Part shown: positions 7,981-49,111 of the stretch, piece by piece
Position numbering within the stretch: position 1 is the first letter of the stretch
Layout: each line of letters starts with the position of its first letter
Origin: an uncultured Thermoactinomycetaceae bacterium
Lineage (GTDB): Bacteria > Bacillota > Bacilli > Thermoactinomycetales > CALJVA01
DNA length: 64,000 nucleotides
Direction: 5' to 3'
Assembly (NCBI GenBank): GCA_937975135.1
Contig: CALJVA010000067.1
Span: 17,792 to 81,791, forward strand
Position numbers and translations under genes: made by a program
The notes under the pieces: generated by a model
The model's database searches: none
Told to the model about the DNA's origin: nothing
What the model saw: the letters and a program-made list of their open reading frames with translations, nothing else

Positions 7981-8007
7981 TGCTGAAGAATGAGGGATCA
8001 GCCAAGA

Positions 8008-27106: not shown

Positions 27107-27757
27107 ATGTATCCAGTTGAGATTTTTGTAGTTCATTATCCAGACAGCCTATTATCAGGATTGCAGCTCGTGTTGGAACGCGATATTGAAATTGTAAAAA
27201 GAGGAATCCTCGCAAACCTGTCTACTGAGAAAGATACCTTTCTGTCTAAAGTATCTTGGAAATGTTTTGGAAAAGACATAAAAGAAGTTCAGCAGGCGAT
27301 TACTGAAAAGAAAAGCTCAACAAAGGTGATTTTGTACGCCGATTGTTTGCCAGATTACTGGTTTAGTTATCTCTTAAAAGGTGTCAATGCTGTGGTAGCT
27401 ATCAAAGATCATCAGGAGTTACCAATCGCCATACACCTTGTCTCTCTAGGTGGAATTTATCTCAGCAAGGAATATAAAAATTGTTTTCGTAAAGGGCTAT
27501 ACTTCGAAACTGGTTTTGAATTAGCTAAAAATTGTATAGGATTAACTGAAATGGAGATAAAAGTGATTCGGGAAATTGCACAGGACCGTTCAAATAAGGA
27601 AATTGCTGAAGTGCTCTATATTAGTGAGCGGACTGTAGAATATCATATTTCCTCTGCAATGCGGAAAATGGGAGTAAAGTCAAGGGTTGGATTAGTTGTT
27701 AATATACTAAAAATGAATTTGATAGATTTGAAGGAAATACAAAAATTAAACAGTTGA
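27107..27757 (+). CDS. Orphan LuxR/GerE-family regulator with degenerate receiver-like N-terminus
   Basis: C-terminal HTH LTEMEIKVIREIAQDRSNKEIAEVLYISERTVEYHISSAMRKMGVKSR. The N-terminus EIFVVHYPD lacks the acidic DD pocket of NarL-type receivers. No cognate kinase lies nearby. Confidence 0.8.
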   Translation: MYPVEIFVVHYPDSLLSGLQLVLERDIEIVKRGILANLSTEKDTFLSKVSWKCFGKDIKEVQQAITEKKSSTKVILYADCLPDYWFSYLLKGVNAVVAIKDHQELPIAIHLVSLGGIYLSKEYKNCFRKGLYFETGFELAKNCIGLTEMEIKVIREIAQDRSNKEIAEVLYISERTVEYHISSAMRKMGVKSRVGLVVNILKMNLIDLKEIQKLNS

Positions 27758-27896
27758 ATATGCTATCCAGTACTAAGAAACTAGTGTGTTCCGAGGAAAT
27801 GACTGTGGAAAACACGGAAGATCTAAATAGTTGTATGTGATATATATATAATTAATTCATTTGTCTTAAGATTATATCTATATATCTATCAGAACA

Positions 27897-27958
27897 ACGG
27901 AATATTCATATGATTTACTGACGACGGAATACTAGAACTTATTTAAATGAGTTATTAT
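27897..27958 (+). promoter_or_regulatory. Candidate activator-dependent promoter of the precursor genes (direct repeats ACGGAATA x2 + TATTAT -10)
   Basis: ACGGAATA at 27897-27904 and 27924-27931 (27 bp start to start). TATTAT at 27953-27958 has a poor -35 (TACTAG) that abuts the second repeat. Confidence 0.3.
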
Positions 27959-28033
27959 GCAAGAAATGAAATTTGAATCACCCCCGTCGATGATTTCAAA
28001 AAATGCATGTTTTACAGAAAGGGGGTGAAAAGA

Positions 28034-28186
28034 ATGGAACTGAAGGATCTGGAAATCACTGGGTTAGAAGTGATGGAGTTGAATGATGCGACAGCATTGC
28101 CAGAAACCGGAGCATCTTCTGGTTCAACTTCCTGCTCTGCTACCTCCACATGCGGTTCCTCCTCCTGCTGTGGATCTTGCTGGTAA
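28034..28186 (+). CDS. Thiopeptide/lactazole-type RiPP precursor peptide A1 (50 aa)
   Basis: Hand translation: MELKDLEITGLEVMELNDATALPETGA-SSGSTSCSATSTCGSSSCCGSCW*. RBS GGGGGTG 6 nt upstream. Absent from the ORF track because it is shorter than 60 aa. Confidence 0.85.
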   Translation: MELKDLEITGLEVMELNDATALPETGASSGSTSCSATSTCGSSSCCGSCW

Positions 28187-28288
28187 TGGGTGAGGGAATC
28201 TTTGTAATCATCAGTTTAGATTGGTGATTCCAGTAATAAAAGGATAACTTTATACTTCCCTCAATGCCTTTATGAAAGAGGGGATAGT

Positions 28289-28441
28289 ATGGAACTGAAA
28301 GATCTAGAAATCTCAGGTATCGAGATAATGGATCTAAAAGATGCTACAGCATTGCCAGAGACAGGTGCTTCTGCGGGATCGTCTGGCTGCTCTGCTTGCT
28401 CTACCTGTGGTTCTTGTTCTTGCTGTAGCTCTTGTTTCTAA
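28289..28441 (+). CDS. Thiopeptide/lactazole-type RiPP precursor peptide A2 (50 aa)
   Basis: MELKDLEISGIEIMDLKDATALPETGA-SAGSSGCSACSTCGSCSCCSSCF*. RBS GAGGGGA upstream. Confidence 0.85.
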   Translation: MELKDLEISGIEIMDLKDATALPETGASAGSSGCSACSTCGSCSCCSSCF

Positions 28442-28468
28442 GAATCTACTTTGAGAGGAGGTGAAACT

Positions 28469-28618
28469 ATGGAATTGAAAGAGTTGGAAATCACAGGTTT
28501 GGAAGTAATGGACTTGAATGATGCCACTGCATTGCCAGAAACCGGAGCATCTTCAGGCTCCTCTTCTTGCTCCGCTACATCTACTTGTGGTTCTTCTTCC
28601 TGCTGCGGCTCTTGCTAA
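28469..28618 (+). CDS. Thiopeptide/lactazole-type RiPP precursor peptide A3 (49 aa)
   Basis: MELKELEITGLEVMDLNDATALPETGA-SSGSSSCSATSTCGSSSCCGSC*. RBS AGGAGGTG 5 nt upstream. Confidence 0.85.
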   Translation: MELKELEITGLEVMDLNDATALPETGASSGSSSCSATSTCGSSSCCGSC

Positions 28619-28675
28619 GCTATGGAAGAGGATAATGATTGGGGCCTACAACAAAAGTTATTACTTTTACTTACC

Positions 28676-28715
28676 AATGATGTAATCGATGTGTTTTCAC
28701 ATCGGTTACATCATT
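28676..28715 (+). promoter_or_regulatory. 18-bp stem-loop between the precursor genes and the enzyme genes (attenuator or mRNA-stabilising hairpin)
   Basis: aatgatgtaatcgatgtg-tttt-cacatcggttacatcatt: 17 Watson-Crick pairs plus one G-U. Followed by tatgtattt, a weak U-tract. Confidence 0.5.
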
Positions 28716-28776
28716 TATGTATTTAAGCAATTTTTCACATAATCTAGATAATTAGTTAAAAGTAAGGAGGATTATA

Positions 28777-31509
28777 GTGGCGCAGGCAGGAGTTGCCCTT
28801 TCAACACCCTCAAGGAAACAAGTCATTGATTTGCCTCTATTTATGCTCCGTGTGGCGGGAATGCCTATTCATGAGCTTCTGCGAATGCGGATTCCGCTGA
28901 CGATGAAGTGTCTTAAAGAAATGACCGAAAATCAAAGGTGGATTGAGGCCAACACCCAATGGATTATAGAAAAAATTGAGCAGGAAGTTCCTAAACAGAA
29001 GGATGATAAAATACGTAATCAGCTAATTCAATATAAAAGGGATATTTTTAACAATCGCTTTCCTAAAAAACGCTCCGATCACTTTCACTCTGTTTTACCT
29101 TCTTCCCTACTTGAGCAGATGAAACAATGGGAAGAAGTTTGGCTTACCATTAAAAAATTGAAAGAGGAAGCAAGTCAACATTTTCCCCAAGAGCTTACTA
29201 AGAATCGGGAAGTACTACAGGAAATTATTCAGGATCCGAACTTATTGAGAGGCGTTGTTTTAACAAGCCGCGATTTGTACTACAAGGTGAAAAAATATAT
29301 TGAAACACCGATTCCCAAGCAAAAAGCGAGATTACGAAAAGTAGAGTATTCCCTGAGCAAGTATATTTCTCGTGTAGCAGCTAAAACCAGCCCTTTTAGC
29401 ACATTCACATCTGTAGGGATTGGAGAATGGAGCTCAGAGCATAAGGATGGAAAGCTTCATATTGCCTCTCTTCAGCATAAGAGCCATGTTCAGCTGAATT
29501 ATGCAAACCTTTTGCGGGTAGTGGATGGACTGGTTAAGCAACCGGCGGTAAGAAAACATCTGTCTTACAAAGTAAACCCAACACTGATTGTCGATGAGGG
29601 CAAAGTGAAGTATATTCGACGGTTGGATGATTCTCAAAGAAGAGCCCGCGTTTTCAAGACATTGGAAACACCTGTTTCTTTGAATTTAAATCCAGCGATT
29701 CAAGCAGTGTTTTCTATTCTTCAATCGGAAGATCAGGGTAAAATCGGTTTTATTGAGTTAGCAAAAAGGCTAACTGAACAATTGTCTACTGCCCCAGAAA
29801 ATGTAGAAAAGTTTCTACATCAATTGATTGACTTAGCGATCCTTGTTCCTGATCTTCATTTATATGAACAGACAAATGAGATTATTCCATCCATATTAGA
29901 ATTAATTAAGGAATGGCCGGAAGAAATTGCACAGCGAACTGGAAGTCGATTACAAGACATGGAAGACATTCTGGCCCAATATGGCTCAGCTTCAGTTGAG
30001 GAGCGTGCCGCTTATTTGCAGCGCGTTAAAGAAATTTATCGAGATATATGCACAGACCTTCAGATTGAAATTTCGGAGACCTCTCTGGGACTCTTAGTCT
30101 ATGAAGACGCAATTTTGCAGGAAAAATCATCCTTTTCACTAGATAATTGGAAAGAGTATCTTAATGATCTAGTGGCCTACCAGTCAATTGCCCCTATTTT
30201 TGATGTTAAATTCCGCATTCAATCTGCAATTGCCCAGAAGTTTATCGAAATGTATGGGGAGGATGGAGTGTGTGATAAACCAGGGCAGTTTCTAAGTACT
30301 GTCGTTCCAACATTAACAGAGTTTTATTCTGCCTTTTTACCTACTGCCTTGCCAAAGGATTTGGAGCTTAAGAATGAGTTGAAGCCAATTCGGATATTAA
30401 ACGAGTTACAAAGAGAAATGGGCGAGTTATTATTAGAACGATTTAAGAATGAACAGGAAGAAGTCCACCTTACTCATGAAGAATTGACTTCCTTTGCAGA
30501 GCGGATTCCAAAGGAGATTGCGAGACGGCCTCTGTCCCATGACTGCTTTGTGCAACTGGTTTCCCGTAGTGATGGTGAGGATCTACTCGTACTTAACCAG
30601 ATGTATTTGGGGAATACCACCTTTTTTACACGATTTCTTTCTTATTTTCCAGAGGAAGAGATCACCCAACTACTTCGAAATTATCTATCTACTCTCTATG
30701 AAAAAGAAGGGGTACTGGCAGAAATTTCGGGCGTATATGGTTTTAATGCCAACCTTCATCCTCCTTTGACGCCGTATGAGCTGTCACTTCCCATGTTATC
30801 ACCTACAAGAGATAAAGGAGAAAAAATTAATTGGGAAGACTTGGTGATGGTATACAACAAAGAAAAAGATCGTGTGATTCTTCGTCATCCTGAACTGGGT
30901 GAAGTGACAACACTATTTTTAGGTACCCTGATTCCCATGTTGATTCCCTTTGTGGTTAATTTTATGGCAACCAATTTTAGTAATGGACATTTTTCTAATT
31001 GGTTTCATTTGTTTGCAGAACAAAAATTAACAGAGGAAGAGAAGCAGCAAGTGCGAGTCTATCCTCGTATTTCTGTCGGACGGGTAGTTGTTGCACGTAA
31101 AAAGTGGATTTTTCCCCGCTCCCAACTGGTATATCGTGAAGCGAGGGATGATGAATTTTCCTACTTTACACGAGTGCATGAGTGGAGAAAGAAGTGGGAC
31201 TTACCAGATCGTCTCTTTTTCCGTTTGGCGGCTGAGCGTCAATCAGAGGAATCAACGTTCTCTTTGGATCCCCAAGCAACAGCCAATACAGAGGAGATCG
31301 ATTTTACGGACTTTAAACCCCAATACCTTGACTTCGAAAATCCTTTATTAGTACGTATGTTTGGAAAAATGATCGCAGACAATTCTTACTATGTCATTAT
31401 GGAAGAAATGTTGCCTGATATTGATAATCTGGCTTTATCGAGTGATGGTAGTTCTTATGTTTCAGAACTTTTAGTAGAACTTAGTCGACCAGGATTGAGG
31501 GAGGAATAG
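28777..31509 (+). CDS. LanB-type dehydratase, N-terminal glutamylation domain protein (Lant_dehydr_N)
   Basis: 910 aa. N-terminal FMLRVAGMPIHEL motif and size are typical of split class I lanthipeptide/thiopeptide dehydratases (TclK/LazB-like). GTG start after AAGGAGGA. Confidence 0.8.
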   Translation: MAQAGVALSTPSRKQVIDLPLFMLRVAGMPIHELLRMRIPLTMKCLKEMTENQRWIEANTQWIIEKIEQEVPKQKDDKIRNQLIQYKRDIFNNRFPKKRSDHFHSVLPSSLLEQMKQWEEVWLTIKKLKEEASQHFPQELTKNREVLQEIIQDPNLLRGVVLTSRDLYYKVKKYIETPIPKQKARLRKVEYSLSKYISRVAAKTSPFSTFTSVGIGEWSSEHKDGKLHIASLQHKSHVQLNYANLLRVVDGLVKQPAVRKHLSYKVNPTLIVDEGKVKYIRRLDDSQRRARVFKTLETPVSLNLNPAIQAVFSILQSEDQGKIGFIELAKRLTEQLSTAPENVEKFLHQLIDLAILVPDLHLYEQTNEIIPSILELIKEWPEEIAQRTGSRLQDMEDILAQYGSASVEERAAYLQRVKEIYRDICTDLQIEISETSLGLLVYEDAILQEKSSFSLDNWKEYLNDLVAYQSIAPIFDVKFRIQSAIAQKFIEMYGEDGVCDKPGQFLSTVVPTLTEFYSAFLPTALPKDLELKNELKPIRILNELQREMGELLLERFKNEQEEVHLTHEELTSFAERIPKEIARRPLSHDCFVQLVSRSDGEDLLVLNQMYLGNTTFFTRFLSYFPEEEITQLLRNYLSTLYEKEGVLAEISGVYGFNANLHPPLTPYELSLPMLSPTRDKGEKINWEDLVMVYNKEKDRVILRHPELGEVTTLFLGTLIPMLIPFVVNFMATNFSNGHFSNWFHLFAEQKLTEEEKQQVRVYPRISVGRVVVARKKWIFPRSQLVYREARDDEFSYFTRVHEWRKKWDLPDRLFFRLAAERQSEESTFSLDPQATANTEEIDFTDFKPQYLDFENPLLVRMFGKMIADNSYYVIMEEMLPDIDNLALSSDGSSYVSELLVELSRPGLREE

Positions 31510-31512
31510 TTT

Positions 31513-32652
31513 TTGTGGAAAGCGATTCATATTTATTATTACCAAGATGATAAAGAAGGTTTGTTACTGGATGGCATTCGTCCTGTAGTCAAAAGTTTGC
31601 GCGATACATACCAGGTTGAACGTATTTATCTAAAGAGACATTGGAAATTGGGTCCTCACATTATTTTATATGTCGATGCTTTGGAAGAAAGATTTGAAAA
31701 AGTACTTTATCCCTTTATTGAACAAGAAATTTACAAGTATCTTAAGGAACACCCATCGACACAGGTGATCGATCCCGTTGCTTATGTAAAGCAATCAGAA
31801 ACATTGGGTGCGTGGGAGCTGGAACCAGGCCCTTATGAACCGCTTGAACCAGACAATTCCATCAGTGTTAAGCCTGTTCGATCTCGAGCTGAATTGGTCA
31901 ATGGGGAAGAAGTAGCTCATCTCATTGAGAACTTTATGGTAGACAGTGTTGATCTTGTGTTTGACTGTTTGGATTCTACTCGAGGTCAAATTAATCAGCG
32001 GTATGGAAAACTGATTCAGATGATGGCTGTAATTGGCCAAATGTATCCCGTTGATGGGATTATCCGTGGTCATCTTTCTTATCGATCCCATGTTGAAGGG
32101 TATTTGCATTCTTTTGATAAAGAGGGAAAGATTCGACAAGTTTTTTTAGAAAATGAACGTGGAATGATGAAGACCGTCGATCATCTTGTACGGGATATTA
32201 TGGACCATACAAATGAGGATGGTACTTACGGAGGGGACGACCCCTTTTTACAGTCCTGGTCAGAAGTTCTTTCTAAATTGTATCAAGAAGCATTCCCTCT
32301 GGCTCAAGCAGGAAAAATTAACGCTGACACATCCCACTATAGAGAGATTGCCGCTAGAATAGGGGAACAAGCAAAAAAGCGTTGGGATCTAACACAGGAT
32401 CAAAGCGATTTTCACCGGCATCTTCAATCGGAAGAAGAAGGTTTGCGTGTTTTAAACAGTCCTGAATTTGCAACCTATCGTATCTTGGTAAATAATTTTT
32501 ATTCCTTGTTGCCTCTTTTGGGAATTAATCCAAATGTAAAGCACTTACTCTGTTTTCTGGTTGCCAATTCTGTAGAGAGAATTGCACAAGTAACATGGCA
32601 GGAACTTATGGGATATCAAAAGGGTGAGAATACTTATGAAACCAAAACTTAA
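31513..32652 (+). CDS. Thiopeptide-type bacteriocin biosynthesis domain protein (SpaB_C / Lant_dehydr_C): glutamate-elimination partner or pyridine synthase
   Basis: 379 aa. Family hallmark W..IHIYYY....LLLDGIRPVV...YLKRHWKLGPHIILYV. Confidence 0.75.
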   Translation: MWKAIHIYYYQDDKEGLLLDGIRPVVKSLRDTYQVERIYLKRHWKLGPHIILYVDALEERFEKVLYPFIEQEIYKYLKEHPSTQVIDPVAYVKQSETLGAWELEPGPYEPLEPDNSISVKPVRSRAELVNGEEVAHLIENFMVDSVDLVFDCLDSTRGQINQRYGKLIQMMAVIGQMYPVDGIIRGHLSYRSHVEGYLHSFDKEGKIRQVFLENERGMMKTVDHLVRDIMDHTNEDGTYGGDDPFLQSWSEVLSKLYQEAFPLAQAGKINADTSHYREIAARIGEQAKKRWDLTQDQSDFHRHLQSEEEGLRVLNSPEFATYRILVNNFYSLLPLLGINPNVKHLLCFLVANSVERIAQVTWQELMGYQKGENTYETKT

Positions 32653-34498
32653 ACAGACTGTTCACTTCGCACCAACAGAAGACGGGGTATATTTTAAGAC
32701 ATGGACCGGTGAATTTGCGATCAAAGGCAAAGGGTTGTATCAATGGATTGAACAGATGGTACCTTATTTAGATGGAAATAGAACCATTGAAGAGCTGGTG
32801 GAACCTTTATCTCCCGAACAAGAACAGTTTGTGAGGCATCTCATTAATCAGCTGGTACAGCGTGGTGTAATTAAAGATGCGACTGAGGAATCCCATGTAG
32901 TCTTATCGGAGCGGGAAAAAGAGCTTTATCAACAGACTATCCTGTACTTAGAAGAGTATGCTTCTGATGGACGAAAACAATTTCAACGGTTTCGGCACAG
33001 TCAATGGATGGTTTTTGGTTCTGGATTAAGTTACCGTTCCTGTGTTCGTTCAGTAATTTCCCTTGGAGTAAAAACACTTTACTTAGAAAAGACAGAAGAT
33101 ATCACCTTGATTCGTTGGATCGAAAAGTGGCAAAAGAAAGATCCTGAATTTAAAGTGACATGGATCTCCAGTGAGAAAGAAGAGGAAATTCTAGATACAG
33201 TTGTCGATAAGCAACTTGATCTAGCAATCTATGTGAGTGATCAGTATGATTCCGAGCGGATTTCTTCTTTGATCCAGTTCCTTGGAAAACATGAGATAGA
33301 TCTTCTGATCACCAGCAATATCGAAAACCGAGGGATTGTAGGTCCTATCATTACTAAAGAAGAACCAACAAGTTGGTACAGTCTACAGGATCGTCTGCAT
33401 CCAAAGAAGGAGGTTGCTGCTTCTCCTCCTCCTACTTTTTATCTCATGCTTGGCAATCTTGCTGCTTTGGAGGCATTTAAGTTTGTCAATGGATTGCCAG
33501 ATCAAGGGGTAGTGGATGGAGTTGTTATTTTGACGCCGGAGCAACTGGAGACGAAGCGTCATCCTGTTTTGTCATCTCCCTTCTTTAACAAGAAGGAGAG
33601 TGTGGATGAAGAAGAATGGCTACATCGTTTTCAGAAGAAATCAGAGGAAGAGGATCAAGAGGTATTCCTAGAACAAATTGCAGAGATCAGTGATCCACAG
33701 CTTGGAATCCTTCATCCAGTTCATCCTGGGGATCTCTGGCAGATTCCACTTCTTTTTATGGGAGCAACGCTTCATTTTCCTCGTTCTATGAATCGTGAAA
33801 TCAAGCAATTTGTAGCAGGGAAAGAAAATGTATCAGATGCAACGGAGCAAGTGATCCGAGATGCACTCACTTATTATGCTCAAACGATTCACGAATACGA
33901 AGGAGATGAAGAGCTTGCTGCTACGTCATATGTTTGGGAAAACGGACGAACTTTTGCTGAATGGTTGGGCAGAGGCGCCTTGAAGGCTTGGGCTCAGATG
34001 GTGAAACAGTCAGCACCAGCCAAGGAGCTGCCTTTGGAGATTCCCTCCTTAAAAATTGGTACCTATGTAAAAATGTTATCCCTTCGTTATGGGTGTAACA
34101 TCCGCTTAATTGAAGTGGATCTAGGTTTACCTTCTTCCCATTATGTACAAGTATTGGACAATGGAAACATATTGGCAGAAAGTGTGGGTCGTACTCAGGA
34201 TGAAGCGGTTGAACTCGCCTTGGTACAGGGAATCAGCCAAATGCAGTTGAAAAATCATCATCCGGAACTTTGTGATCCTTTGGAACCCTCTTGGTTTGCT
34301 AGATCACTTGAAGTAGGTGAGTGGGAAAATAAGCAACCCATACCTTCCTGGCAGGAATGGAAAAGGAATGCAGAAGAGTATTGGAAAGAAAAGGGATGGG
34401 AGCTGATTGTAAAACCCTGGTATCGTGACCCAGCTTGCTATGAAGCAGGTTTGTTGATTGGGCGGATCGGATTTAAAGAAGGGAGAGGGGTTGAATGA
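32636..34498 (+). CDS. TOMM/thiopeptide leader-peptide-binding (RRE / E1-like) cyclodehydratase partner protein
   Basis: The N-terminus KLKQTVHFAPTEDGVYFKTWTGEFAIKGKGLYQWIEQMVPYLDGNRTIEELV is typical of PqqD-like RRE N-termini of azoline-forming C proteins. The C-terminal GRTQDEAVELALVQGI weakly recalls a YcaO motif. Confidence 0.6.
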   Translation: MKPKLKQTVHFAPTEDGVYFKTWTGEFAIKGKGLYQWIEQMVPYLDGNRTIEELVEPLSPEQEQFVRHLINQLVQRGVIKDATEESHVVLSEREKELYQQTILYLEEYASDGRKQFQRFRHSQWMVFGSGLSYRSCVRSVISLGVKTLYLEKTEDITLIRWIEKWQKKDPEFKVTWISSEKEEEILDTVVDKQLDLAIYVSDQYDSERISSLIQFLGKHEIDLLITSNIENRGIVGPIITKEEPTSWYSLQDRLHPKKEVAASPPPTFYLMLGNLAALEAFKFVNGLPDQGVVDGVVILTPEQLETKRHPVLSSPFFNKKESVDEEEWLHRFQKKSEEEDQEVFLEQIAEISDPQLGILHPVHPGDLWQIPLLFMGATLHFPRSMNREIKQFVAGKENVSDATEQVIRDALTYYAQTIHEYEGDEELAATSYVWENGRTFAEWLGRGALKAWAQMVKQSAPAKELPLEIPSLKIGTYVKMLSLRYGCNIRLIEVDLGLPSSHYVQVLDNGNILAESVGRTQDEAVELALVQGISQMQLKNHHPELCDPLEPSWFARSLEVGEWENKQPIPSWQEWKRNAEEYWKEKGWELIVKPWYRDPACYEAGLLIGRIGFKEGRGVE

Positions 34499-36462: not shown

Positions 36463-36472
36463 GGTGGACTTA

Positions 36473-38020
36473 ATGAATCGAGATCTTACCATCGGTCGCA
36501 CTTTTATTCACAATAAAACCTATTACCGTTTTCGGACGGCTCAAGATTTAAAATTGCGATCAGTTCCGGAAAGGTTTGTAACTGAGAAACCCGCAAAAAA
36601 AATGATTCCTTTAACGTGGGATGTATATCCTGATTTGGGGGAGATGGAGAGCTTTGGTCCGTTAAAAGTCCCATCTTTTGAGAGGAGAATAGCAACGCTT
36701 CTTTACTATACAATGGGACTTCTCCGTTATGAGGTGAATAGTCCACGGGCGTTTCATCGCCCTTTTCCTTCTCCTCGTGGTCTCTACGCATCGGAGATTT
36801 ACCTCTCTCTTCCTCAAGAAATAATCGGGGAAGCTGGTATCTATCGCTACAATCCGCTTTACCACGCTGTGGAAAAAAGGCGTTCGTTTACAGGATGGCA
36901 ACAGATTGAAGCAGCAATTGGTATCTCGCTTACAGATGCACAAGGTGTACTCGTGTTAGGTATTGACTTTTGGCGCATCGCCCATGTCTACGATGATTTT
37001 GCGCTAAATTTGGCCACGATAGAGGCAGGGCATGCTTTGGGACAGATCCTCCTTACGGCCCAACGTTTATCATGGGATGTTTCTGTTCATTACACCTTCA
37101 TAGATCAAGAGATTTTATCCTTATTTGGGTTGAACGAAGCGGAAGAAGCTCCGTTGGCCGTAATTGTTTTATGGCCTGCAGGGAAGAAAAAAATTGAGCC
37201 GGCCACCAAATTCTTTGCTCCATCGTTACCGCCCTTCACCGTCCATTCCCGCTATAGCCGGGAAATGGCACAGTGCAAGGAGATGCTGGAAATGGTACGA
37301 GCCTCTCGATTGCGTCGAGGGGATCCCTTTCCCTTAATAGAGATAGAGAAGGGTATATTCGAAGGAGATAAAAAAAGAATGGATTGGGTGCCGTTTCAAG
37401 TAGTAGGAGCAGAGTGGCATGATCCCAGTTGGCTAGAAGCGGTGAAAAGGCGAAGTTCGGGAAATGATCTGGGGGGGATGATGGCAGCCAGTACGTCCCT
37501 TAGCTTTACCCAGTTATCGAAGATGTTGCTCTTATTATTAGGGGAAAAACAATGGGAATGGCAAGTGGCATTAAAACATGTGAAAATTTTTGTGGTGGCT
37601 AATCGGGTGAATAATCTTAGGTCAGGTATTTATCGGGTAGTAAGAGAGCCGGATGGATTGATCCCTTACCGACAAGGATCTATGGGGGAATTACTGCAGA
37701 AATTGAGTATTTATTCTCCACAAAGTTGGAATGCCCATTCTTTTCCCGTCTCTATTTTTCTGGCGGTCGACTATCAAAGTGTACTGGAACGGTATGGAAA
37801 TCGCGGTTTTCAGATGGTTCAGCTGTGGATGGGTCAGATTAGCCAACATCTATCCTTATCAGCTGCTGCGATGGACTTTTTCTTACGTCCCCTTAAAAGC
37901 TTCTACGAAGAAGAAGTTGAACATGCTTTTGGTTTGTTATCAACGAAGGATACAATTGCTTATCAACTTATTTTGGGAAAAAATAAAACACCTTATTTAT
38001 CTTTCGATCTTGGATTTTAA
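36473..38020 (+). CDS. SagB-type (nitroreductase-fold, FMN) azoline dehydrogenase, two-lobed 515-aa form
   Basis: ATG 36473 follows GAGGTGG. PSPRGLYASEIYL and RRSSGNDL motifs are typical of SagB/McbC-type dehydrogenases. The track start at 36314 would overlap the YcaO gene by about 150 nt. Confidence 0.75.
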   Translation: MNRDLTIGRTFIHNKTYYRFRTAQDLKLRSVPERFVTEKPAKKMIPLTWDVYPDLGEMESFGPLKVPSFERRIATLLYYTMGLLRYEVNSPRAFHRPFPSPRGLYASEIYLSLPQEIIGEAGIYRYNPLYHAVEKRRSFTGWQQIEAAIGISLTDAQGVLVLGIDFWRIAHVYDDFALNLATIEAGHALGQILLTAQRLSWDVSVHYTFIDQEILSLFGLNEAEEAPLAVIVLWPAGKKKIEPATKFFAPSLPPFTVHSRYSREMAQCKEMLEMVRASRLRRGDPFPLIEIEKGIFEGDKKRMDWVPFQVVGAEWHDPSWLEAVKRRSSGNDLGGMMAASTSLSFTQLSKMLLLLLGEKQWEWQVALKHVKIFVVANRVNNLRSGIYRVVREPDGLIPYRQGSMGELLQKLSIYSPQSWNAHSFPVSIFLAVDYQSVLERYGNRGFQMVQLWMGQISQHLSLSAAAMDFFLRPLKSFYEEEVEHAFGLLSTKDTIAYQLILGKNKTPYLSFDLGF

Positions 38021-38047
38021 ATTAAGACGAGGTGACGGTTAACTCAT

Positions 38048-39019
38048 ATGAAACGGGATTGGCATGCTTATCACATTTTTTATCATCGGTTTGATAAACA
38101 AGACTCACTATTGCTAGACTGTATTGCTCCACTAGTAGCTGAGGTTCAGGAAAAAAACTTATGCAAGGATTGGTTTTTTATCCGCTATTGGGAAGGTGGA
38201 CCTCATATCCGTCTTCGTTTTTTGGATCCGGATCCTTTGGTTGAAACGATGATCCATGAGAGAATCACTGATTTTATTACAGCTTATCCACCTAAAGAAG
38301 AGATCACTCGGGATCAGTATTATCGAAATCATAAGTTTGATGGAGAACCCGTTGATCCAGACACCTTGCCATGGTATCCCAATGGAAGTATTGTGAAACT
38401 TCCTTATGAGCCGGAATATCAGCGCTATGGTGGAAAAGATGCGATGGCAATCAGTGAGAAAATCTTTACCTATTCTAGTGAAATGGCTTTGAAGGTGATG
38501 GGAGAGTCCGCTGGAGATTTGGCCAAACGATTAAATTTGGCCATGGATTTGATGATTTTAACCGCTAGGTGTTTAGATGTAAGGTTCGAAGAGCTTGCCG
38601 GTTATTTTAAGCGCTATGCAGATTATTGGGGTGGGTTTTTGGATCAACCCAAAGAAGCAGTACAAAAAATTGAATTTACATTTTCTAAGCAGGCTGAGCG
38701 ACTTGTAAAACGATTAGCCATATTGGAGAAGATCCATGATTCTCAAGAAGAGGTGCCACTTTATCGAATATGGGTGGAGCAATTAAAGTCAGCCCAACAA
38801 AGTTACCATCAGTTGGCAAGCGAAGGAAAGTTGATATCCCCTATTTCGATTCCTAATAAGAAAGGGGATCAAACGCGATTTGCCGTTTCAGCGATTGCTT
38901 TTTCTCAGATCCATATGACCAATAATCGTCTTGGACTTGCGCCTCCCTTTGAACATTATCTAGGTTATATGATTTATTTAATTGCGCAACATCGCCAATC
39001 TTCAATAAATGCTTCCTGA
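38048..39019 (+). CDS. Second thiopeptide-type bacteriocin biosynthesis domain protein (SpaB_C-like): candidate [4+2] pyridine synthase (TclM/LazC-like) or elimination domain
   Basis: 323 aa. Hallmark WHAYHIFYH...SLLLDCIAPLV...WFFIRYWEGGPHIRLRF. Confidence 0.7.
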   Translation: MKRDWHAYHIFYHRFDKQDSLLLDCIAPLVAEVQEKNLCKDWFFIRYWEGGPHIRLRFLDPDPLVETMIHERITDFITAYPPKEEITRDQYYRNHKFDGEPVDPDTLPWYPNGSIVKLPYEPEYQRYGGKDAMAISEKIFTYSSEMALKVMGESAGDLAKRLNLAMDLMILTARCLDVRFEELAGYFKRYADYWGGFLDQPKEAVQKIEFTFSKQAERLVKRLAILEKIHDSQEEVPLYRIWVEQLKSAQQSYHQLASEGKLISPISIPNKKGDQTRFAVSAIAFSQIHMTNNRLGLAPPFEHYLGYMIYLIAQHRQSSINAS

Positions 39020-39064
39020 AATCGTTGAGAGAGTATAAAGTGGACTGGAAAGGAGGCTTCTGTA

Positions 39065-39946
39065 ATGAAAAAATCAACACAGTGGATGTTCGCTTCTTTA
39101 AACAGCCTTACACCAGCAGAGCGGTTAAAACGGAAGGGAAAGGATTTCCCTAATCCTTTTTCACTGGCAGAGTTGTATCACGAAAACAGCAAGTATCATC
39201 CGAACTTGATGTCATACCAGATGCCCCTACATCAGTATGCAACACCCGATTACGCCAAAATGCGAAGGAAAGATTATGTGGACCTTCCTTCATTAAAGGA
39301 GCTGCCATCGTTACCTGTCCCATTAGGAGAAGTATTGAAGCGGAGGCGAAGCGAGTGGGACTTTGCCTTGCCAGTTACCTTTGAGCAACTGGCACAAGTA
39401 CTGCAGCATGCTTGGGGTGTTTCGGCTTACAAGCCTGTGCAAGATCATGACGGCAGCACCTTTGATCTTCGGTTACGAACCTACCCGTCAGGGGGGGCTC
39501 TATATCCCATTCAAATGATTATCTATGCACAACAAGTGGAAGGGCTTCAGTCCGGTTTATATCAATTTTCAGCTTTCGACAATCGGTTATATCGAATTTC
39601 AGGTGAACTGGACCCCGATTCTTTTTCTCGCTTAACCCCCTCCACGGATCCGGACCGCAATCCCATTTATCCTGGAAGTGACTTTCGTAAGGCGGCCTTT
39701 TTTTGCTTTTTATATGCGGACTTTACCAATCAAGCGGATAAGTATGGACTGCGGGCCTATCGTCTCGCACTGTTGGAAGCAGGACATGCAGCACAAAATT
39801 TACTCCTAGTCACTACGGCATTACAGTTGAAGAGTGTTCCTCTGGCGGGTTTTTATGATGATCGAGCCCATCAGCTGTTGCAGCTAAATGGTGTTGATCA
39901 AGCTTTGTTATATATAATTCCTGTGGGCAAATCGAAGGAGACTTAA
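39065..39946 (+). CDS. SagB/ThcOx-family dehydrogenase (293 aa)
   Basis: LYHENSKY, RRRSEWDF, TYPSGGALYP and AGHAAQNLLL motifs of the SagB-type dehydrogenase domain. Confidence 0.8.
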   Translation: MKKSTQWMFASLNSLTPAERLKRKGKDFPNPFSLAELYHENSKYHPNLMSYQMPLHQYATPDYAKMRRKDYVDLPSLKELPSLPVPLGEVLKRRRSEWDFALPVTFEQLAQVLQHAWGVSAYKPVQDHDGSTFDLRLRTYPSGGALYPIQMIIYAQQVEGLQSGLYQFSAFDNRLYRISGELDPDSFSRLTPSTDPDRNPIYPGSDFRKAAFFCFLYADFTNQADKYGLRAYRLALLEAGHAAQNLLLVTTALQLKSVPLAGFYDDRAHQLLQLNGVDQALLYIIPVGKSKET

Positions 39947-39948
39947 GA

Positions 39949-41070: not shown

Positions 41071-41087
41071 AAAGGGGAGAAGAGAAC

Positions 41088-41828
41088 ATGGCAAAGAAAA
41101 CTGTCATCGAAGTGGATGCAGTTGAAAAAGCTTACGGAACAACCAAAGCAGTGGATGGGATATCCTTTACAGTATCTCAGCAGGAGATTTTTGGTGTAAT
41201 TGGTGCCAATGGAGCAGGCAAGACAACCACATTGGAAATGATCATGGGCCTTAGGGTTCCAGATAAAGGAAATATCAAGGTGTTGGGGCATGATGTGGTC
41301 AAAAATACAGATCAAATCAAGCAAAAAATTGGTATTCAATTACAGCAAACATCGTTGTATGACCGCATTAAGGTTAAGGAAGCGCTAGAGTTGTTTGCTT
41401 CCTATTATGATAAAACAAGGGACCCACAAGAGATTATTCAGCTTCTGGGGTTAGAGCCCTATTTAAATAAATATGTAAAGAAGTTATCTGGTGGTTGGCA
41501 ACAGAGGACTGCATTGGCCCTTGCTTTAATCAATGATCCTGACATTATATTCCTAGATGAACCAACAACAGGACTCGATCCACAGGCACGGCGGGATTTG
41601 TGGGACGTGATTTTAAAGTTGCGTGATGAGGGGAAAACAATTGTTCTTTCGACACACTATATGGAAGAAGCACAACGCCATTGTGATCGAATCGCGGTAA
41701 TAAAAAAAGGACGGCTCGTCGATTGTGATACACCTGAAGGATTGATTCGCCGTCTACCAGAAGGCAAAGGGACAATGGATGATGTATACCTTCAACTAGC
41801 GGTGGAGCAGAAGGAGGAATCGGCATAA
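41088..41828 (+). CDS. ABC transporter ATP-binding protein
   Basis: Walker A GANGAGKTT, signature LSGGWQQR, Walker B IIFLDEPTTGLD. ATG 41088 follows GGGGAGAAGAG. Confidence 0.9.
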   Translation: MAKKTVIEVDAVEKAYGTTKAVDGISFTVSQQEIFGVIGANGAGKTTTLEMIMGLRVPDKGNIKVLGHDVVKNTDQIKQKIGIQLQQTSLYDRIKVKEALELFASYYDKTRDPQEIIQLLGLEPYLNKYVKKLSGGWQQRTALALALINDPDIIFLDEPTTGLDPQARRDLWDVILKLRDEGKTIVLSTHYMEEAQRHCDRIAVIKKGRLVDCDTPEGLIRRLPEGKGTMDDVYLQLAVEQKEESA

Positions 41829-41829
41829 G

Positions 41830-42570
41830 ATGCAGGCGTTATGGACACATACCAAAACTGAGATGAAGCTCTTTTTTCGTGAACCGATTGCGGTCTTTTT
41901 TACGCTGTTATTGCCGGGTGTTATGTTTGTTATTATGGGTAAAATTTTCGGTACGGAGACATATAGTATCGGGGACTATTTCGAAGTTTATATTCCCAAT
42001 ATGATAGGCATTGTTATTTTTGCTACCGGTTTTTTTGCAATTGGTCTCCAAATTGTCATTGATCGGGAAAAAGGAGTGTATAAAAGGCTAAAAGGAACTC
42101 CTCTTAATCCCATCTATGTGTTCACAGCACTGGTCGTGAAGGGATGTTTGGCCGTTTATTTAGGCGTGATTGAGATTTTAATTTTGGCCAAAGTTGTATT
42201 TGATGTGTCCTTGTCCTCTAGTCTTTTTCAGTTCTTTTTAGGTGTTACCCTATCCCTTCTCGCTTTTTTAGGTCTTGGTTTTTTGGTCGCCAGTATTTCG
42301 AAGCGAATGCAGACAGCCATGGCGATTGGCTTTATTGCCATGTATCCAATGATGTTTTTGTCAGGAGCTTGGTTTCCAATCGATAATTTTTCCCCTTTTT
42401 GGAAGTCGATGTCAAAAATAATTCCTTTAACTTATGCCAATGATATGATGCGTTTAGGATGGCAAGGGAAGCTGTATACTCAGGAAGGACTGGTTGCAAC
42501 CATAGTTCTTTTTGGGATCCTACTGGTGAGTGCTTTTATAGGTGTTCGTTTTTTCCGTTGGGATCCCTAA
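41830..42570 (+). CDS. ABC-2-type transporter permease
   Basis: 246 aa with six predicted TM segments. The start lies 1 nt after the ATPase stop, with an AGGAGG RBS. Confidence 0.85.
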   Translation: MQALWTHTKTEMKLFFREPIAVFFTLLLPGVMFVIMGKIFGTETYSIGDYFEVYIPNMIGIVIFATGFFAIGLQIVIDREKGVYKRLKGTPLNPIYVFTALVVKGCLAVYLGVIEILILAKVVFDVSLSSSLFQFFLGVTLSLLAFLGLGFLVASISKRMQTAMAIGFIAMYPMMFLSGAWFPIDNFSPFWKSMSKIIPLTYANDMMRLGWQGKLYTQEGLVATIVLFGILLVSAFIGVRFFRWDP

Positions 42571-42590
42571 AATAGAATAAAATCCCTTTG

Positions 42591-42627
42591 AGATCGGGTA
42601 TGGTCATTCCATACCTGATCTTTTTTA
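42591..42627 (+). terminator. Strong rho-independent terminator closing the RiPP operon
   Basis: agatcgggtatgg-tcatt-ccatacctgatct (13-bp stem, one G-U) followed by tttttt. Confidence 0.8.
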
Positions 42628-43711: not shown

Positions 43712-43834
43712 CGTATCCTCCAAATATTGTAGTTTAGAAAGGTGGAGATCCACCAGAGGTAATCAGACTTGCGTTACATCACTCTTCTTTGTATGATTAG
43801 TATAACGTAATACAAGTAAACATCAAAGGCGAGG

Positions 43835-45110
<1,276 letters not shown>

Positions 45111-47686: not shown

Positions 47687-47974
47687 CACTTTCACCTCCT
47701 GAGAAGGAATCAGCGTCCATTTATTAGGCGTCCATTGATTAAGAGAACACGGACAATTTTATCACGGAGAATAAGAAAATGCAAGAGAGAGAATAAAGGC
47801 TGTCGAGCATGGGTCATACTGAAATGACTGGAACTTTTTCTAAAAAGAAGATTCTTAGATTGGGATTTAGGGACATCCGATATTTCATTTTTCTAAGCAA
47901 ATGATTTAGGCAAAATAGCATGCTATTAGCATCTTTCTTACAAGGATTTAAGACGATAGTAGGAGTGGATTTTG

Positions 47975-49075: not shown

Positions 49076-49111
49076 CTGCTCTTAATATCTACTGTTTAAG
49101 CAATTGCTAGT

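What the first reader, a model, noticed from the sequence alone, without database searches (positions are those of the whole stretch)
27107..42627. Roughly 15.5-kb thiopeptide-like RiPP gene cluster with an unusual enzyme complement
The order is: LuxR regulator, three precursors, LanB N-terminal glutamylation protein (910 aa), SpaB_C-type protein (379 aa), RRE/E1-like protein (about 620 aa), YcaO (655 aa), SagB dehydrogenase (515 aa), second SpaB_C-type protein (323 aa), second SagB/ThcOx dehydrogenase (293 aa), ThiF/E1-like protein (373 aa), ABC ATPase, ABC-2 permease, strong terminator. Genes from 28777 to 42570 are separated by 46 nt or less, or overlap (ATGA junctions), which implies one operon. 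A split LanB plus a second SpaB_C-like protein plus YcaO and dehydrogenase is the thiopeptide signature, with one SpaB_C protein eliminating glutamate and the other acting as the [4+2] pyridine synthase. No leader protease is present. That fits leader removal by the pyridine synthase. No P450, methyltransferase, amidase, extra L11 or EF-Tu immunity gene is present either. The doubled dehydrogenases and extra E1-like proteins go beyond the minimal lactazole set (lazB-F).
Basis: partly seen in the sequence, partly recalled or inferred. Interest (0 to 1): 0.85.

Follow-up and report, generated by a model that had tools for sequence, protein, structure and literature searches.

The report
Uncharacterised lactazole-like thiopeptide gene cluster
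This is a real, intact gene cluster for a thiopeptide antibiotic (a ribosomal peptide with thiazole rings and a central pyridine) from an uncultured spore-forming bacterium; it belongs to an unstudied but conserved family with a long serine/cysteine-rich core and two extra helper proteins, which makes it a good discovery lead but not a new kind of system.

Summary
Window 27107-42622 (+) holds a LuxR regulator, three precursor genes, ten tightly packed biosynthesis and export genes, and a strong terminator. HMM, PDB and paralogue-partition tests place 31513-32652 with the [4+2] pyridine synthases (TbtD class). They place 38048-39019 with the glutamate-elimination proteins (TbtC class). A goadsporin-like linear product is therefore very unlikely.

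The gene order is collinear with lazA-F, with LazF split into an elimination gene and SagB2. Two genes are inserted:
- a divergent two-lobed SagB protein (36473-38020) that lacks the catalytic Lys;
- a 373-aa RRE plus E1-like protein (39949-41070). Its distant full-length relatives are TOMM "C" leader-binding proteins in SagB-C-YcaO operons. It lacks the E1 ATP motif.

SagB2 keeps the McbC Lys-Tyr dyad, so it is probably the main azoline dehydrogenase.

The same architecture and a nearly invariant core (SSGSxSCSxxSTCGSSSCCxSC) occur in Staphylospora, Tumebacillus and Paenibacillus. A related core occurs in a Streptosporangiaceae MAG. The invariant [S/C/T]16-S17-C18 triad mirrors the lactazole Ser11-Ser12-Cys13 site. 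If Ser1 pairs with Ser17, the ring would have 47 members, against 26-35 in known natural thiopeptides.

I found no published product. My verdict is a new variant of a known kind, of moderate interest.

The parts
27107..27757 (+). LuxR/GerE-type transcriptional regulator (216 aa)
   Evidence: PF00196 GerE 65 bits at residues 146-198. A GerE regulator sits at the same place in Staphylospora marina and in JGI relatives.
28034..28186 (+). Precursor A1. Leader MELKDLEITGLEVMELNDATALPETGA, core SSGSTSCSATSTCGSSSCCGSCW.
   Evidence: PF19409 Thiopep_pre 59 bits, covering the whole 36-position model. Sequence read. The exact peptide is on 28 public contigs.
28289..28441 (+). Precursor A2. Core SAGSSGCSACSTCGSCSCCSSCF.
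   Evidence: NF033400 58 bits (cut-off 30) and TIGR03892 44.9 bits (cut-off 25).
28469..28618 (+). Precursor A3. Core SSGSSSCSATSTCGSSSCCGSC.
   Evidence: NF033400 58.7 bits and TIGR03892 40.3 bits.
28676..28715 (+). 18-bp stem-loop between the last precursor gene and the enzyme genes. It is a likely partial terminator or mRNA-stabilising hairpin that keeps precursor transcripts in excess. The role is inferred.
   Evidence: Terminator-like scan. RNA fold of 28619-28776 gives -38.4 kcal/mol, z = -4.4, and 0 of 200 shuffles fold as well.
28777..31509 (+). Split LanB glutamylation protein (910 aa, TbtB/LazB type). It would perform tRNA-Glu-dependent Ser/Thr activation.
   Evidence: PF04738 162.8 bits. 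It aligns over its full length with PDB 6EC7, which I recall to be TbtB, at E = 1.1e-43, and with a goadsporin biosynthetic protein at 1.7e-8.
31513..32652 (+). [4+2] pyridine synthase (379 aa, TbtD/LazC role). It would macrocyclise the peptide and expel the leader.
   Evidence: NF045556 288.6 bits (equivalog cut-off 325). PDB TbtD 1e-35 and PbtD 1.5e-21. It matches the TbtD-position paralogue in other loci.
32636..34498 (+). Ocin-ThiF-like F protein (620 aa) with an N-terminal RRE. It is the leader-binding partner of the YcaO.
   Evidence: TIGR03693 E = 1.5e-31. Residues 5-80 match the PbtF RRE domain (PDB 8T19) at 3e-11.
34495..36462 (+). YcaO cyclodehydratase (655 aa) with an RRE-less E1-like N-terminal domain. 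It is the only YcaO in the cluster.
   Evidence: PF02624 289 bits; TIGR03604 359 bits; TIGR03882 at residues 72-238. The C-terminus is HPHPFP, a PxPxP-type end.
36473..38020 (+). SagB1, a divergent two-lobed SagB-family protein (515 aa). Its role is uncertain.
   Evidence: TIGR03605 117 bits in two stretches. The Tyr of the McbC Lys-Tyr dyad is kept in the N-lobe but the Lys is not, and the dyad is not conserved in either lobe among orthologues.
38048..39019 (+). Glutamate-elimination protein (323 aa, TbtC role; corresponds to the LazF elimination domain).
   Evidence: PF14028 165.6 bits and TIGR03891 106.7 bits. It matches the TbtC-position paralogue in other loci. It is fused to a SagB2-like domain in L015.
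39065..39946 (+). SagB2, a canonical single-domain FMN azoline dehydrogenase (293 aa; corresponds to the LazF dehydrogenase domain).
   Evidence: TIGR03605 111 bits. It aligns with McbC with K-Y at the Lys201-Tyr202 position and with RTYPSGGALYP at the FMN Arg117 motif (PMC6395948).
39949..41070 (+). ThiF2, an RRE plus E1-like protein (373 aa). It is most likely a TOMM C-type leader-binding scaffold.
   Evidence: - PF00899 72 bits; TIGR03603 58 bits (below cut-off); TIGR03882 40.9 bits (above cut-off).
- Best PDB matches are MccB and PaaA.
- The E1 NLxRQ motif is absent.
- Distant homologues sit in SagB-C-YcaO operons.
41088..41828 (+). ABC transporter ATPase (DrrA-like)
   Evidence: PF00005 111 bits; TIGR01188 245.6 bits.
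41830..42570 (+). ABC-2 permease (DrrB-like). With the ATPase it would provide export or self-protection; this role is inferred.
   Evidence: TIGR01247 61.8 bits; PF01061 and PF12698 on identical copies.
42590..42622 (+). Intrinsic terminator closing the operon
   Evidence: 14-bp stem with 6 GC pairs, followed by TTTTTATGG.

Best explanation
The region is an intact chromosomal thiopeptide biosynthetic operon. Its layout is that of the lactazole cluster (A-B-C-D-E-F) with two inserted genes.

Proposed pathway (the order of steps is inferred from the thiomuracin and lactazole literature, not shown here):
1. LuxR drives transcription. The hairpin after A3 keeps precursor mRNA in excess.
2. [quoted passage not shown] The YcaO cyclodehydrates Cys, and probably selected Ser/Thr, to azolines.
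3. SagB2, which keeps the McbC Lys-Tyr dyad, oxidises the azolines to azoles.
4. LanB_N glutamylates the remaining Ser/Thr with Glu-tRNA, and the 323-aa elimination protein converts them to Dha/Dhb.
5. The 379-aa pyridine synthase joins Dha1 to a downstream Dha in a formal [4+2] reaction. The best candidate is Ser17, inside the invariant azole16-Ser17-Cys18 triad; the alternative is Ser11. This closes the macrocycle and ejects the leader as an amide, so no protease is needed.
6. The ABC-2 pump exports the product.

The two genes that go beyond the laz set are interpreted as follows.
- ThiF2 is a second, C-protein-type leader-binding scaffold. It forms a B-C module with the adjacent SagB2 and borrows the single YcaO. 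This plausibly extends azole formation to Ser/Thr or to a second stretch of the unusually long core.
- SagB1 is a divergent SagB paralogue placed next to the YcaO. It has lost the catalytic Lys and may be accessory or structural.
For: Identity of the cluster:
- PDB relatives are TbtD/PbtD, 6EC7 (TbtB from my memory), PbtF-RRE and McbC.
- The two SpaB_C paralogues partition cleanly across about 40 loci.

Conservation:
- The same 10-gene order, including SagB2 and ThiF2, occurs in Staphylospora marina, Tumebacillus avium, T. lipolyticus, Paenibacillus tarimensis and five metagenome contigs, at 37-87% identity.
- More than 20 precursors share S1, S11-T12-C13, S15, S17-C18-C19 and S21-C22. Positions 10 and 16 only ever toggle among Cys, Ser and Thr. 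This is what is expected if these positions become azoles in every variant.

Link to lactazole:
- S15-S16-S17-C18 matches the essential LazA Ser10-Ser11(oxazole)-Ser12(pyridine)-Cys13(thiazole) motif (PMC7210931).
- The elimination gene and SagB2 are adjacent here and are fused, like LazF, in L015.

The extra genes:
- SagB2 carries K-Y and the FMN motif aligned to McbC (PMC6395948).
- ThiF2 has an N-terminal strand-then-helix domain compatible with an RRE in the AF2 model.
- Fifty of 52 ThiF2 relatives match the SagC-family model.
- Halomicrobium and Rhizobium homologues of ThiF2 are annotated TOMM leader-binding proteins and sit beside SagB and YcaO genes.
- The sulfomycin system is a precedent for several scaffold and dehydrogenase complexes in one thiopeptide pathway (bioRxiv 10.1101/2023.10.23.563616).
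Against: - No product, transcript or activity data exist.
- The pyridine-synthase score (288.6 bits) is below the NCBIfam equivalog cut-off of 325.
- ThiF2's best solved relatives are the catalytic enzymes MccB and PaaA, not McbB. ThiF2 also keeps a Gly-rich loop plus D160, R184 and D229, so ATP use is not excluded.
- The AF2 model of ThiF2 is weak (mean pLDDT 63; the C-terminal third is below 50).
- SagB1 keeps the catalytic Tyr and the FMN Arg, so it may still be an active dehydrogenase. The division of labour between SagB1 and SagB2 is therefore unresolved.
- The first core residue is Thr in the actinobacterial relative L015. The ring register (Ser1 versus Ser2, partner Ser17 versus Ser11) rests on motif analogy only.
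- Some metagenome copies carry split LanB_N, YcaO or elimination genes.
Confidence: 0.75

Rival explanations
1. Sulfomycin-like division of labour. The Ocin-ThiF-like protein, the YcaO and SagB1 make the thiazoles. ThiF2 and SagB2, with the same YcaO, form a separate complex dedicated to oxazoles and methyloxazoles from Ser/Thr. On this reading both dehydrogenases are catalytic.
For: - SagB1 passes the SagB family cut-off (117 bits against 78.4) and keeps the Tyr and the FMN Arg.
- Core positions 7, 10 and 16 toggle among Cys, Ser and Thr, which implies that both thiazoles and oxazoles are made.
- Sulfomycin uses three such complexes (bioRxiv 10.1101/2023.10.23.563616).
Against: - The Lys of the Lys-Tyr dyad is absent and not conserved in SagB1 orthologues.
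- L015 has a near-identical core motif but no ThiF2.
- LazDEF makes both azole types with one scaffold and one dehydrogenase (PMC7210931).
Confidence: 0.3
2. ThiF2 is a catalytic E1-like enzyme of the MccB/PaaA type. It would adenylate a carboxylate of the peptide, for example the C-terminal Cys22 or thiazole carboxylate, for a tailoring step such as amidation, cyclisation or thiocarboxylation.
For: - Its best sequence and fold matches among solved structures are MccB (E = 4.6e-10) and PaaA (Foldseek 6e-13).
- The Gly-rich loop, D160, R184 and D229 are conserved.
- The clade that has ThiF2 has cores ending in S-C, with or without one further residue. The relative L015, which lacks ThiF2, has a core ending in SAED.
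Against: - The E1 NLxRQ phosphate-binding motif is absent in every member of the subfamily.
- Relatives score best on the SagC and TOMM leader-binding models.
- Distant homologues sit in SagB-C-YcaO operons.
- The correlation with the C-terminus rests on a single locus.
Confidence: 0.18
3. The product is a linear azole/dehydroalanine peptide (goadsporin-like), or the cluster is silent or decaying.
For: - LanB_N also hits a goadsporin biosynthetic protein (PDB 9JHQ) weakly.
- Some public copies have split genes.
- The pyridine-synthase score is below the equivalog cut-off.
Against: - A TbtD-class paralogue, distinct from the elimination paralogue, is present and conserved across genera.
- All ORFs are intact in the window.
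- The operon and the core are conserved at 37-87% protein identity across at least four genera.
Confidence: 0.05

Closest known systems
Lactazole cluster lazA-F (Streptomyces lactacystinaeus; PMC7210931)
   Same: - The gene order is the same: precursor, LanB_N, pyridine synthase, RRE partner, YcaO, then elimination plus dehydrogenase.
- The leader is removed by the pyridine synthase and there are no tailoring genes.
- The core Ser-Ser-Ser-Cys site (positions 15-18) matches the essential LazA Ser10-Ser11-Ser12-Cys13 motif.
- Core residue 2 is not a Cys.
   Different: - LazF is split here into two genes.
- Two genes are added (SagB1 and ThiF2), together with an ABC pump and a LuxR regulator.
- There are three precursor variants.
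- The core has 22-23 residues against 16.
- If Ser1 pairs with Ser17 the ring would have 47 members rather than 32.
- The host belongs to the Bacillales.
- I could not compare directly with the LazC sequence.
Thiomuracin/GE2270 enzymes TbtB-G and PbtD/PbtF
   Same: The nearest solved relatives of the window proteins come from this system:
- pyridine synthase: TbtD at 1e-35;
- LanB_N: PDB 6EC7, which I recall to be TbtB, at 1e-43;
- RRE of the Ocin-ThiF-like protein: PbtF at 3e-11.

The system also shares the arrangement of an F protein plus a YcaO with an RRE-less E1-like domain.
   Different: The gene order and the core differ (thiomuracin: SCNCFCYICCSCSSA, from my own memory, 29-membered ring). 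Thiomuracin was reconstituted with six proteins and no discrete C protein (from my own memory of Hudson et al. 2015; not checked here).
Thiocillin/micrococcin tcl system (Bacillus, Macrococcus)
   Same: - It is also a Firmicute system with tandem multi-copy precursors.
- The leader is similar in style (LEI..D..MPE..GA).
- An S-C-C follows the second pyridine Ser.
- TclI, TclJ and TclN follow the same scaffold, YcaO and dehydrogenase logic (bioRxiv 10.1101/2023.10.23.563616).
   Different: The window cluster has no L11 immunity genes and no TclP, TclS or TclO tailoring genes. Its core is much longer and Ser-rich, and it has the extra C-type scaffold and a second SagB protein.
Sulfomycin Sul azole-forming machinery
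   Same: It is a thiopeptide pathway with several RRE/E1/Ocin-ThiF-like proteins and more than one dehydrogenase, which form alternative complexes for thiazole, oxazole and methyloxazole.
   Different: Sul has two YcaO proteins, whereas this cluster has one.
Canonical TOMM B-C-D synthetases (McbBCD; the Halomicrobium and Rhizobium operons L061 and L062)
   Same: SagB2 followed by ThiF2 looks like the B-C pair of such operons. SagB2 has the Lys-Tyr dyad. ThiF2 has an RRE-like N-terminus, an E1-like domain and two CxxC pairs.
   Different: There is no dedicated D (YcaO) for this pair. ThiF2 keeps a longer E1-like segment than those C proteins, and McbB is not among its detectable PDB relatives.

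Membership tests
Thiopeptide (pyridine-forming) RiPP gene cluster | Precursor of the thiazolylpeptide type, with a Cys/Ser/Thr-rich core after a ...GA junction | tested here: met
   PF19409 59 bits, NF033400 58 bits (cut-off 30) and TIGR03892 40-45 bits (cut-off 25).
Thiopeptide (pyridine-forming) RiPP gene cluster | Split LanB: a glutamylation protein plus a separate elimination protein | tested here: met
   PF04738 162.8 bits and PDB 6EC7 at 1e-43 for the glutamylation protein. PF14028 165.6 bits and TIGR03891 106.7 bits for the elimination protein.
Thiopeptide (pyridine-forming) RiPP gene cluster | A second SpaB_C paralogue of the [4+2] pyridine-synthase class | tested here: met
   NF045556 288.6 bits, which is strong but below the equivalog cut-off of 325. 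TbtD in the PDB at 1e-35. Consistent partition from the elimination class across about 40 loci.
Thiopeptide (pyridine-forming) RiPP gene cluster | YcaO cyclodehydratase with an RRE partner and an FMN azoline dehydrogenase | tested here: met
   TIGR03604 359 bits; TIGR03693 1.5e-31 and the PbtF RRE at 3e-11; SagB2 with the K-Y dyad.
Thiopeptide (pyridine-forming) RiPP gene cluster | The product contains a six-membered nitrogen heterocycle within a macrocycle | not testable with these tools
   This needs MS/NMR of the product.
Lactazole-type (laz-like) minimal cluster | Five enzymes only, with the elimination and dehydrogenase domains fused in LazF | tested here: not met
   The two are separate genes here (38048-39019 and 39065-39946), and two more proteins are present, SagB1 and ThiF2. 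The fusion is present in relative L015.
Lactazole-type (laz-like) minimal cluster | Core with Ser1 and a downstream Ser-Ser-Ser-Cys macrocyclisation motif | tested here: met
   S1 and S15-[S/C/T]16-S17-C18 are conserved in all Bacillales precursors examined. The motif is defined in PMC7210931.
TOMM B-C-D azole synthetase (for SagB2 plus ThiF2) | B protein: SagB/McbC fold with the Lys-Tyr dyad and the FMN Arg | tested here: met
   The alignment to McbC places K-Y at positions 201-202 and RTYPSGG at Arg117 (PMC6395948).
TOMM B-C-D azole synthetase (for SagB2 plus ThiF2) | C protein: N-terminal RRE plus a non-adenylating E1-like domain | tested here: inconclusive
   TIGR03882 40.9 bits is above its cut-off of 36.9, but TIGR03603 58 bits is below its cut-off of 187.65. 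The AF2 N-terminal domain (strands then helices) is compatible with an RRE, but the whole model has pLDDT 63. NLxRQ is absent. The nearest structures are MccB and PaaA.
TOMM B-C-D azole synthetase (for SagB2 plus ThiF2) | A dedicated YcaO (D) partner gene for the pair | tested here: not met
   Only one YcaO is present in the operon, and it is already paired with an F protein.
MccB/PaaA-type adenylating E1-like enzymes (for ThiF2) | Intact E1 nucleotide-binding set: Gly loop plus D..D....NLxRQ...K | tested here: not met
   MccB has DNDQIENTNLTRQ where ThiF2 has DDEKITRNDIEES. The Arg-Gln is absent in all 7 close and 52 distant relatives.
Goadsporin-like linear azole peptide cluster | Split LanB plus YcaO/dehydrogenase but no pyridine synthase | tested here: not met
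   A TbtD-class paralogue is present.

The most novel reading that the evidence does not exclude
This conserved family may make a natural thiopeptide whose pyridine joins Ser1 to Ser17. That would give a macrocycle of about 47 members (50 for the 24-residue cores). It would be far larger than the 26-35-membered rings of all known natural thiopeptides and would contain mixed thiazoles and oxazoles. Assembly would use a single YcaO served by two different leader-binding scaffolds, one F-type and one C-type, together with two SagB paralogues.
Probability: 0.3. Interest if true: 0.7.

Novelty: new variant of a known kind. Interest (0 to 1): 0.5.

Why it matters
Thiopeptides are potent inhibitors of translation, and their enzymes are used for peptide engineering.

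This family has several useful features:
- It offers a compact, laz-like enzyme set from Firmicutes that has no tailoring genes.
- Its natural cores are 22-24 residues long.
- Each genome encodes several core variants.
- Its macrocyclisation site points to a ring larger than any known natural example.

It is also a natural test case for two questions: how one YcaO can be shared between an Ocin-ThiF-type scaffold and a classical C-type scaffold, and what the Lys-less two-lobed SagB paralogues found in many thiopeptide clusters actually do.

The host is an uncultured lineage, so the product could only be reached by heterologous expression.

Tried and rejected
1. The word-indexed homologue search for ThiF2 returned only 4-5 proteins, alone or as a profile. 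This reflects the index, not rarity. The exhaustive HMMER search found 3610 relatives, 41 of them below 1e-30.
Genomic context for distant relatives came from a plasmid tblastn instead.
3. Full-text searches for the core peptide strings found nothing. A search for Tumebacillus plus thiopeptide gave only incidental mentions, judged from titles and abstracts.
4. The key survey of thiopeptide clusters (Schwalen et al. 2018, PMC6070396) is not held. I could not check whether this family was already catalogued there.
5. My recollection that 'paenithopeptins' were Paenibacillus thiopeptides appears to be wrong: the term occurs only in papers on lanthipeptides.
6. The function of the PDB entry TsrE (7CWW), the best solved match of the elimination protein, could not be confirmed from the literature. 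I did not use it as evidence.
7. The idea that precursor A2 is missing in some strains was rejected. All copies contain it and the gene callers simply skipped it.
8. trpS just downstream was considered as a resistance gene and rejected. It lies beyond the terminator and two unrelated genes, and it has its own T-box.
9. Retention of the Gly-rich loop in ThiF2 was considered as evidence for catalysis and rejected as uninformative. TOMM-annotated C-protein homologues in SagB/YcaO operons keep the loop too.

Full report
**What is there**

ORF listing and translation confirm a co-directional block from 27107 to 42570 on the + strand. It holds a LuxR/GerE regulator, three small precursor genes read directly from the sequence, ten larger genes, and an intrinsic terminator at 42590-42622.

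An 18-bp stem-loop at 28676-28715 separates the last precursor gene from the enzyme genes. The 158-nt spacer folds at -38.4 kcal/mol, with z = -4.4 against shuffles. This is the usual way a RiPP operon keeps precursor transcripts in excess, but that role is inferred.

**Family assignments**

- Pfam and NCBIfam place the proteins as expected: LanB_N (PF04738, 162.8 bits), YcaO (PF02624, 289 bits; TIGR03604, 359 bits, with a TIGR03882 domain at residues 72-238), an Ocin-ThiF-like protein (TIGR03693, 1.5e-31), two SagB-family proteins (TIGR03605, 117 and 111 bits), a ThiF-like protein (PF00899, 72 bits), and a DrrA/DrrB-like ABC-2 exporter.
- The precursors pass the curated cut-offs of the thiazolylpeptide precursor models (PF19409 59 bits; NF033400 58 bits against 30; TIGR03892).
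- LanB_N aligns over its full length with PDB 6EC7, which I recall to be the thiomuracin glutamylation enzyme TbtB (1.1e-43).
- The N-terminus of the Ocin-ThiF-like protein matches the PbtF RRE domain (3e-11).
- The YcaO ends in HPHPFP. From my own knowledge, this is the PxPxP-type C-terminus typical of azoline-forming YcaOs.

Both fall in PF14028, but they are not equivalent.
- 31513-32652 scores 288.6 bits on the TbtD/PbtD pyridine-synthase model (cut-off 325) and nothing on TIGR03891. It hits TbtD at 1e-35 and PbtD at 1.5e-21 in the PDB.
- 38048-39019 scores 106.7 bits on TIGR03891 (cut-off 48). It scores only 127 bits on the pyridine-synthase model and 7e-6 against TbtD.

I fetched 49 related loci from species-representative genomes and scored every ORF with both window proteins. 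In each locus that carries both paralogues, one paralogue scores higher with the window elimination protein and the other scores higher with the window pyridine synthase. In most of these loci the first lies just upstream of the second, which is the TbtC-then-TbtD arrangement. The cluster therefore carries one enzyme of each class. The goadsporin-like alternative fails.

**Who has it**

- Exact copies of the proteins occur on dozens of metagenome and SRA contigs and on a 1.09-Mb ENA/NCBI contig, always between holA and the same downstream genes.
- The window's DnaK and LepA have no relative at 90% identity or above apart from these contigs. No species representative in the genome scan was closer than 47% at the pyridine synthase. 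The host is therefore an uncultured spore-former: gpr, spoIIP, comEC, holA, lepA and dnaK flank the cluster.
- The complete ten-gene order, including SagB2 and ThiF2, recurs at 37-87% protein identity in Staphylospora marina, Tumebacillus avium, T. lipolyticus, Paenibacillus tarimensis and five further metagenome contigs.

**The core peptide**

More than twenty precursors from these loci align without ambiguity. The leaders end in PET[GA]A. In the Bacillales, the cores begin with an invariant Ser1 and read SSGSxSCSxxSTCGSSSCCxSC, with an optional W, F, Q or longer extension.

Tumebacillus and Paenibacillus share an identical core although their enzymes are only about 40-50% identical to the window's. 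This indicates strong selection on the product.

Invariant positions are S1, G3, S11, T12, C13, S15, S17, C18, C19, S21 and C22. Positions 10 (T/C/S) and 16 (S/C/T) vary only among cyclisable residues. That is the pattern expected if they are azoles in every variant, so oxazoles or methyloxazoles are made as well as thiazoles. This is an inference.

**Relation to lactazole**

The gene order precursor, LanB_N, pyridine synthase, RRE partner, YcaO, elimination, dehydrogenase is that of lazA-F, with LazF split into two genes. A Streptosporangiaceae MAG (L015) has a related core, TSGSSSCKSCSTCGSSSCCSAED. It carries the elimination and SagB2-like domains fused as in LazF.

Published in-vitro work shows that LazA needs Ser1, Ser10, Ser11 (oxazole), Ser12 (pyridine) and Cys13 (thiazole). 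It also shows that known natural thiopeptide rings span 26-35 members, and that Laz enzymes can close rings of up to 62 members (PMC7210931).

The invariant S15-[S/C/T]16-S17-C18 of this family matches that motif. If Ser1 pairs with Ser17, the ring has 32 + 5 x 3 = 47 members. The alternative partner, Ser11 (preceded by the cyclisable residue 10), gives 29. Sequence alone cannot decide between them.

**The extra proteins**

SagB2 (293 aa):
- It aligns with McbC so that its K-Y falls on the catalytic Lys201-Tyr202.
- Its RTYPSGGALYP falls on the FMN-binding Arg117 region (PMC6395948).

SagB1 (515 aa, two nitroreductase-like lobes):
- It keeps the Tyr but not the Lys in its N-lobe.
- Neither lobe has a conserved dyad among its orthologues.

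In other thiopeptide loci (L014, L017, L027 and others) a SagB1-like protein with R-Y lies beside the YcaO, and a K-Y two-lobed dehydrogenase lies after the pyridine synthase. A second SagB-like gene is therefore not unique to this cluster. Here SagB2 is the best candidate for the working azoline oxidase.

ThiF2 (373 aa):
- An exhaustive HMMER search of 1.84 billion representatives found 3610 relatives. Most of the 150 listed are full-length proteins of 340-410 aa.
- Fifty of 52 sampled relatives match the SagC-family model, and 49 match the TOMM leader-binding model.
- On plasmids, its full-length homologues are annotated TOMM precursor leader peptide-binding proteins. They sit in SagB-C-YcaO (Halomicrobium) or C-YcaO-x-SagB (Rhizobium) operons.
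- Its AF2 model is weak (pLDDT 63), but the N-terminal strand-then-helix domain compatible with an RRE and the Rossmann-like domain have higher confidence (block means mostly 70-95).
- Foldseek and phmmer rank PaaA and MccB first.
- The E1 phosphate-binding motif, NLTRQ in MccB, is replaced by NDIEE. It is absent in all 7 close and 52 distant relatives.
- The Gly-rich loop is kept, but the TOMM-annotated C-protein homologues keep it too.

I therefore read SagB2-ThiF2 as a B-C module of a classical azole synthetase that lacks its own YcaO. ThiF2 would be a second leader-binding scaffold beside the Ocin-ThiF-like protein.

Published work gives a framework for this:
- In the micrococcin pathway, the scaffold TclI presents the substrate alternately to the YcaO and to the dehydrogenase.
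- Sulfomycin uses several scaffold and dehydrogenase complexes for thiazole, oxazole and methyloxazole (bioRxiv 10.1101/2023.10.23.563616).

A catalytic, MccB-like role for ThiF2 at the peptide C-terminus is not excluded. I give it about 0.18.

**Verdict**

The cluster is not a new kind of system. It is an uncharacterised, conserved, laz-like thiopeptide family with three distinctive points: a long Ser/Cys core with a macrocyclisation motif that may imply a very large ring, a discrete C-type scaffold in addition to the F-type one, and a Lys-less SagB paralogue. I found no published product, but I could not consult the main thiopeptide genome survey. I score interest at 0.5.

Noticed in passing
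L013 8819-12882 (Paenibacillus roseus) and L012 (P. pinihumi): A histidine kinase and a LuxR-type response regulator are followed by a pyridine-synthase homologue (377 aa, 37% identical to window 31513-32652) and by an ABC ATPase and ABC-2 permease (53-62% identical). No precursor, LanB_N, YcaO, SagB or ThiF gene lies within 10 kb. This may be a remnant of a cluster, or a sensing and export (resistance) island that keeps the synthase-like protein for another role.
   Followed up: partly
L015 4340-17890 (Streptosporangiaceae MAG DASYAT010000074): An actinobacterial relative has the core TSGSSSCKSCSTCGSSSCCSAED, a SagB1-like protein between the YcaO and a LazF-like elimination::dehydrogenase fusion, and no ThiF2. 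It links the Bacillales family to lactazole-type clusters.
   Followed up: partly
L014, L017, L023, L027, L030 (Chloroflexi and actinomycete thiopeptide loci): Several of these loci (shown by alignment for L014, L017 and L027) carry two two-lobed SagB-family proteins. One lies next to the YcaO and has R-Y and PSARC motifs. The other lies after the pyridine synthase and has the canonical K-Y and PSGG motifs. The role of the first type is unknown to me.
   Followed up: partly
window 43823-44088 and 44037-45110: A T-box leader (136 bits) lies directly upstream of a tryptophan-tRNA ligase gene (TIGR00233, 379 bits). The real start of trpS is probably near 44124, because 328-aa versions exist. It lies outside the operon and is not an obvious resistance gene.
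   Followed up: partly
window 7812-7979: A c-di-AMP riboswitch (RF00379, 97 bits) lies upstream of a 591-aa ORF (7990-9765).
   Followed up: no
L001, L004, L008 (metagenome copies of the same cluster): Some otherwise identical copies have LanB_N, YcaO, the elimination gene or LuxR split into two ORFs. The cause could be assembly or sequencing errors, or decay within the population. All of these genes are intact in the window.
   Followed up: no
window 34304-34966 (- strand): A 220-aa antisense ORF overlaps the junction of the Ocin-ThiF-like and YcaO genes. The gene callers on the identical metagenome copies did not call it, and I treated it as spurious.
   Followed up: no
window 25762-26790 and 47972-50353: The cluster, together with a thiouracil desulfurase-family gene, ccdC, trpS and a heavy-metal P-type ATPase, lies between holA and gpr-spoIIP. 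My recollection is that this stretch is compact in Bacillus, which would suggest an insertion hotspot. A 65%-identity relative keeps the same downstream genes (L058).
   Followed up: partly
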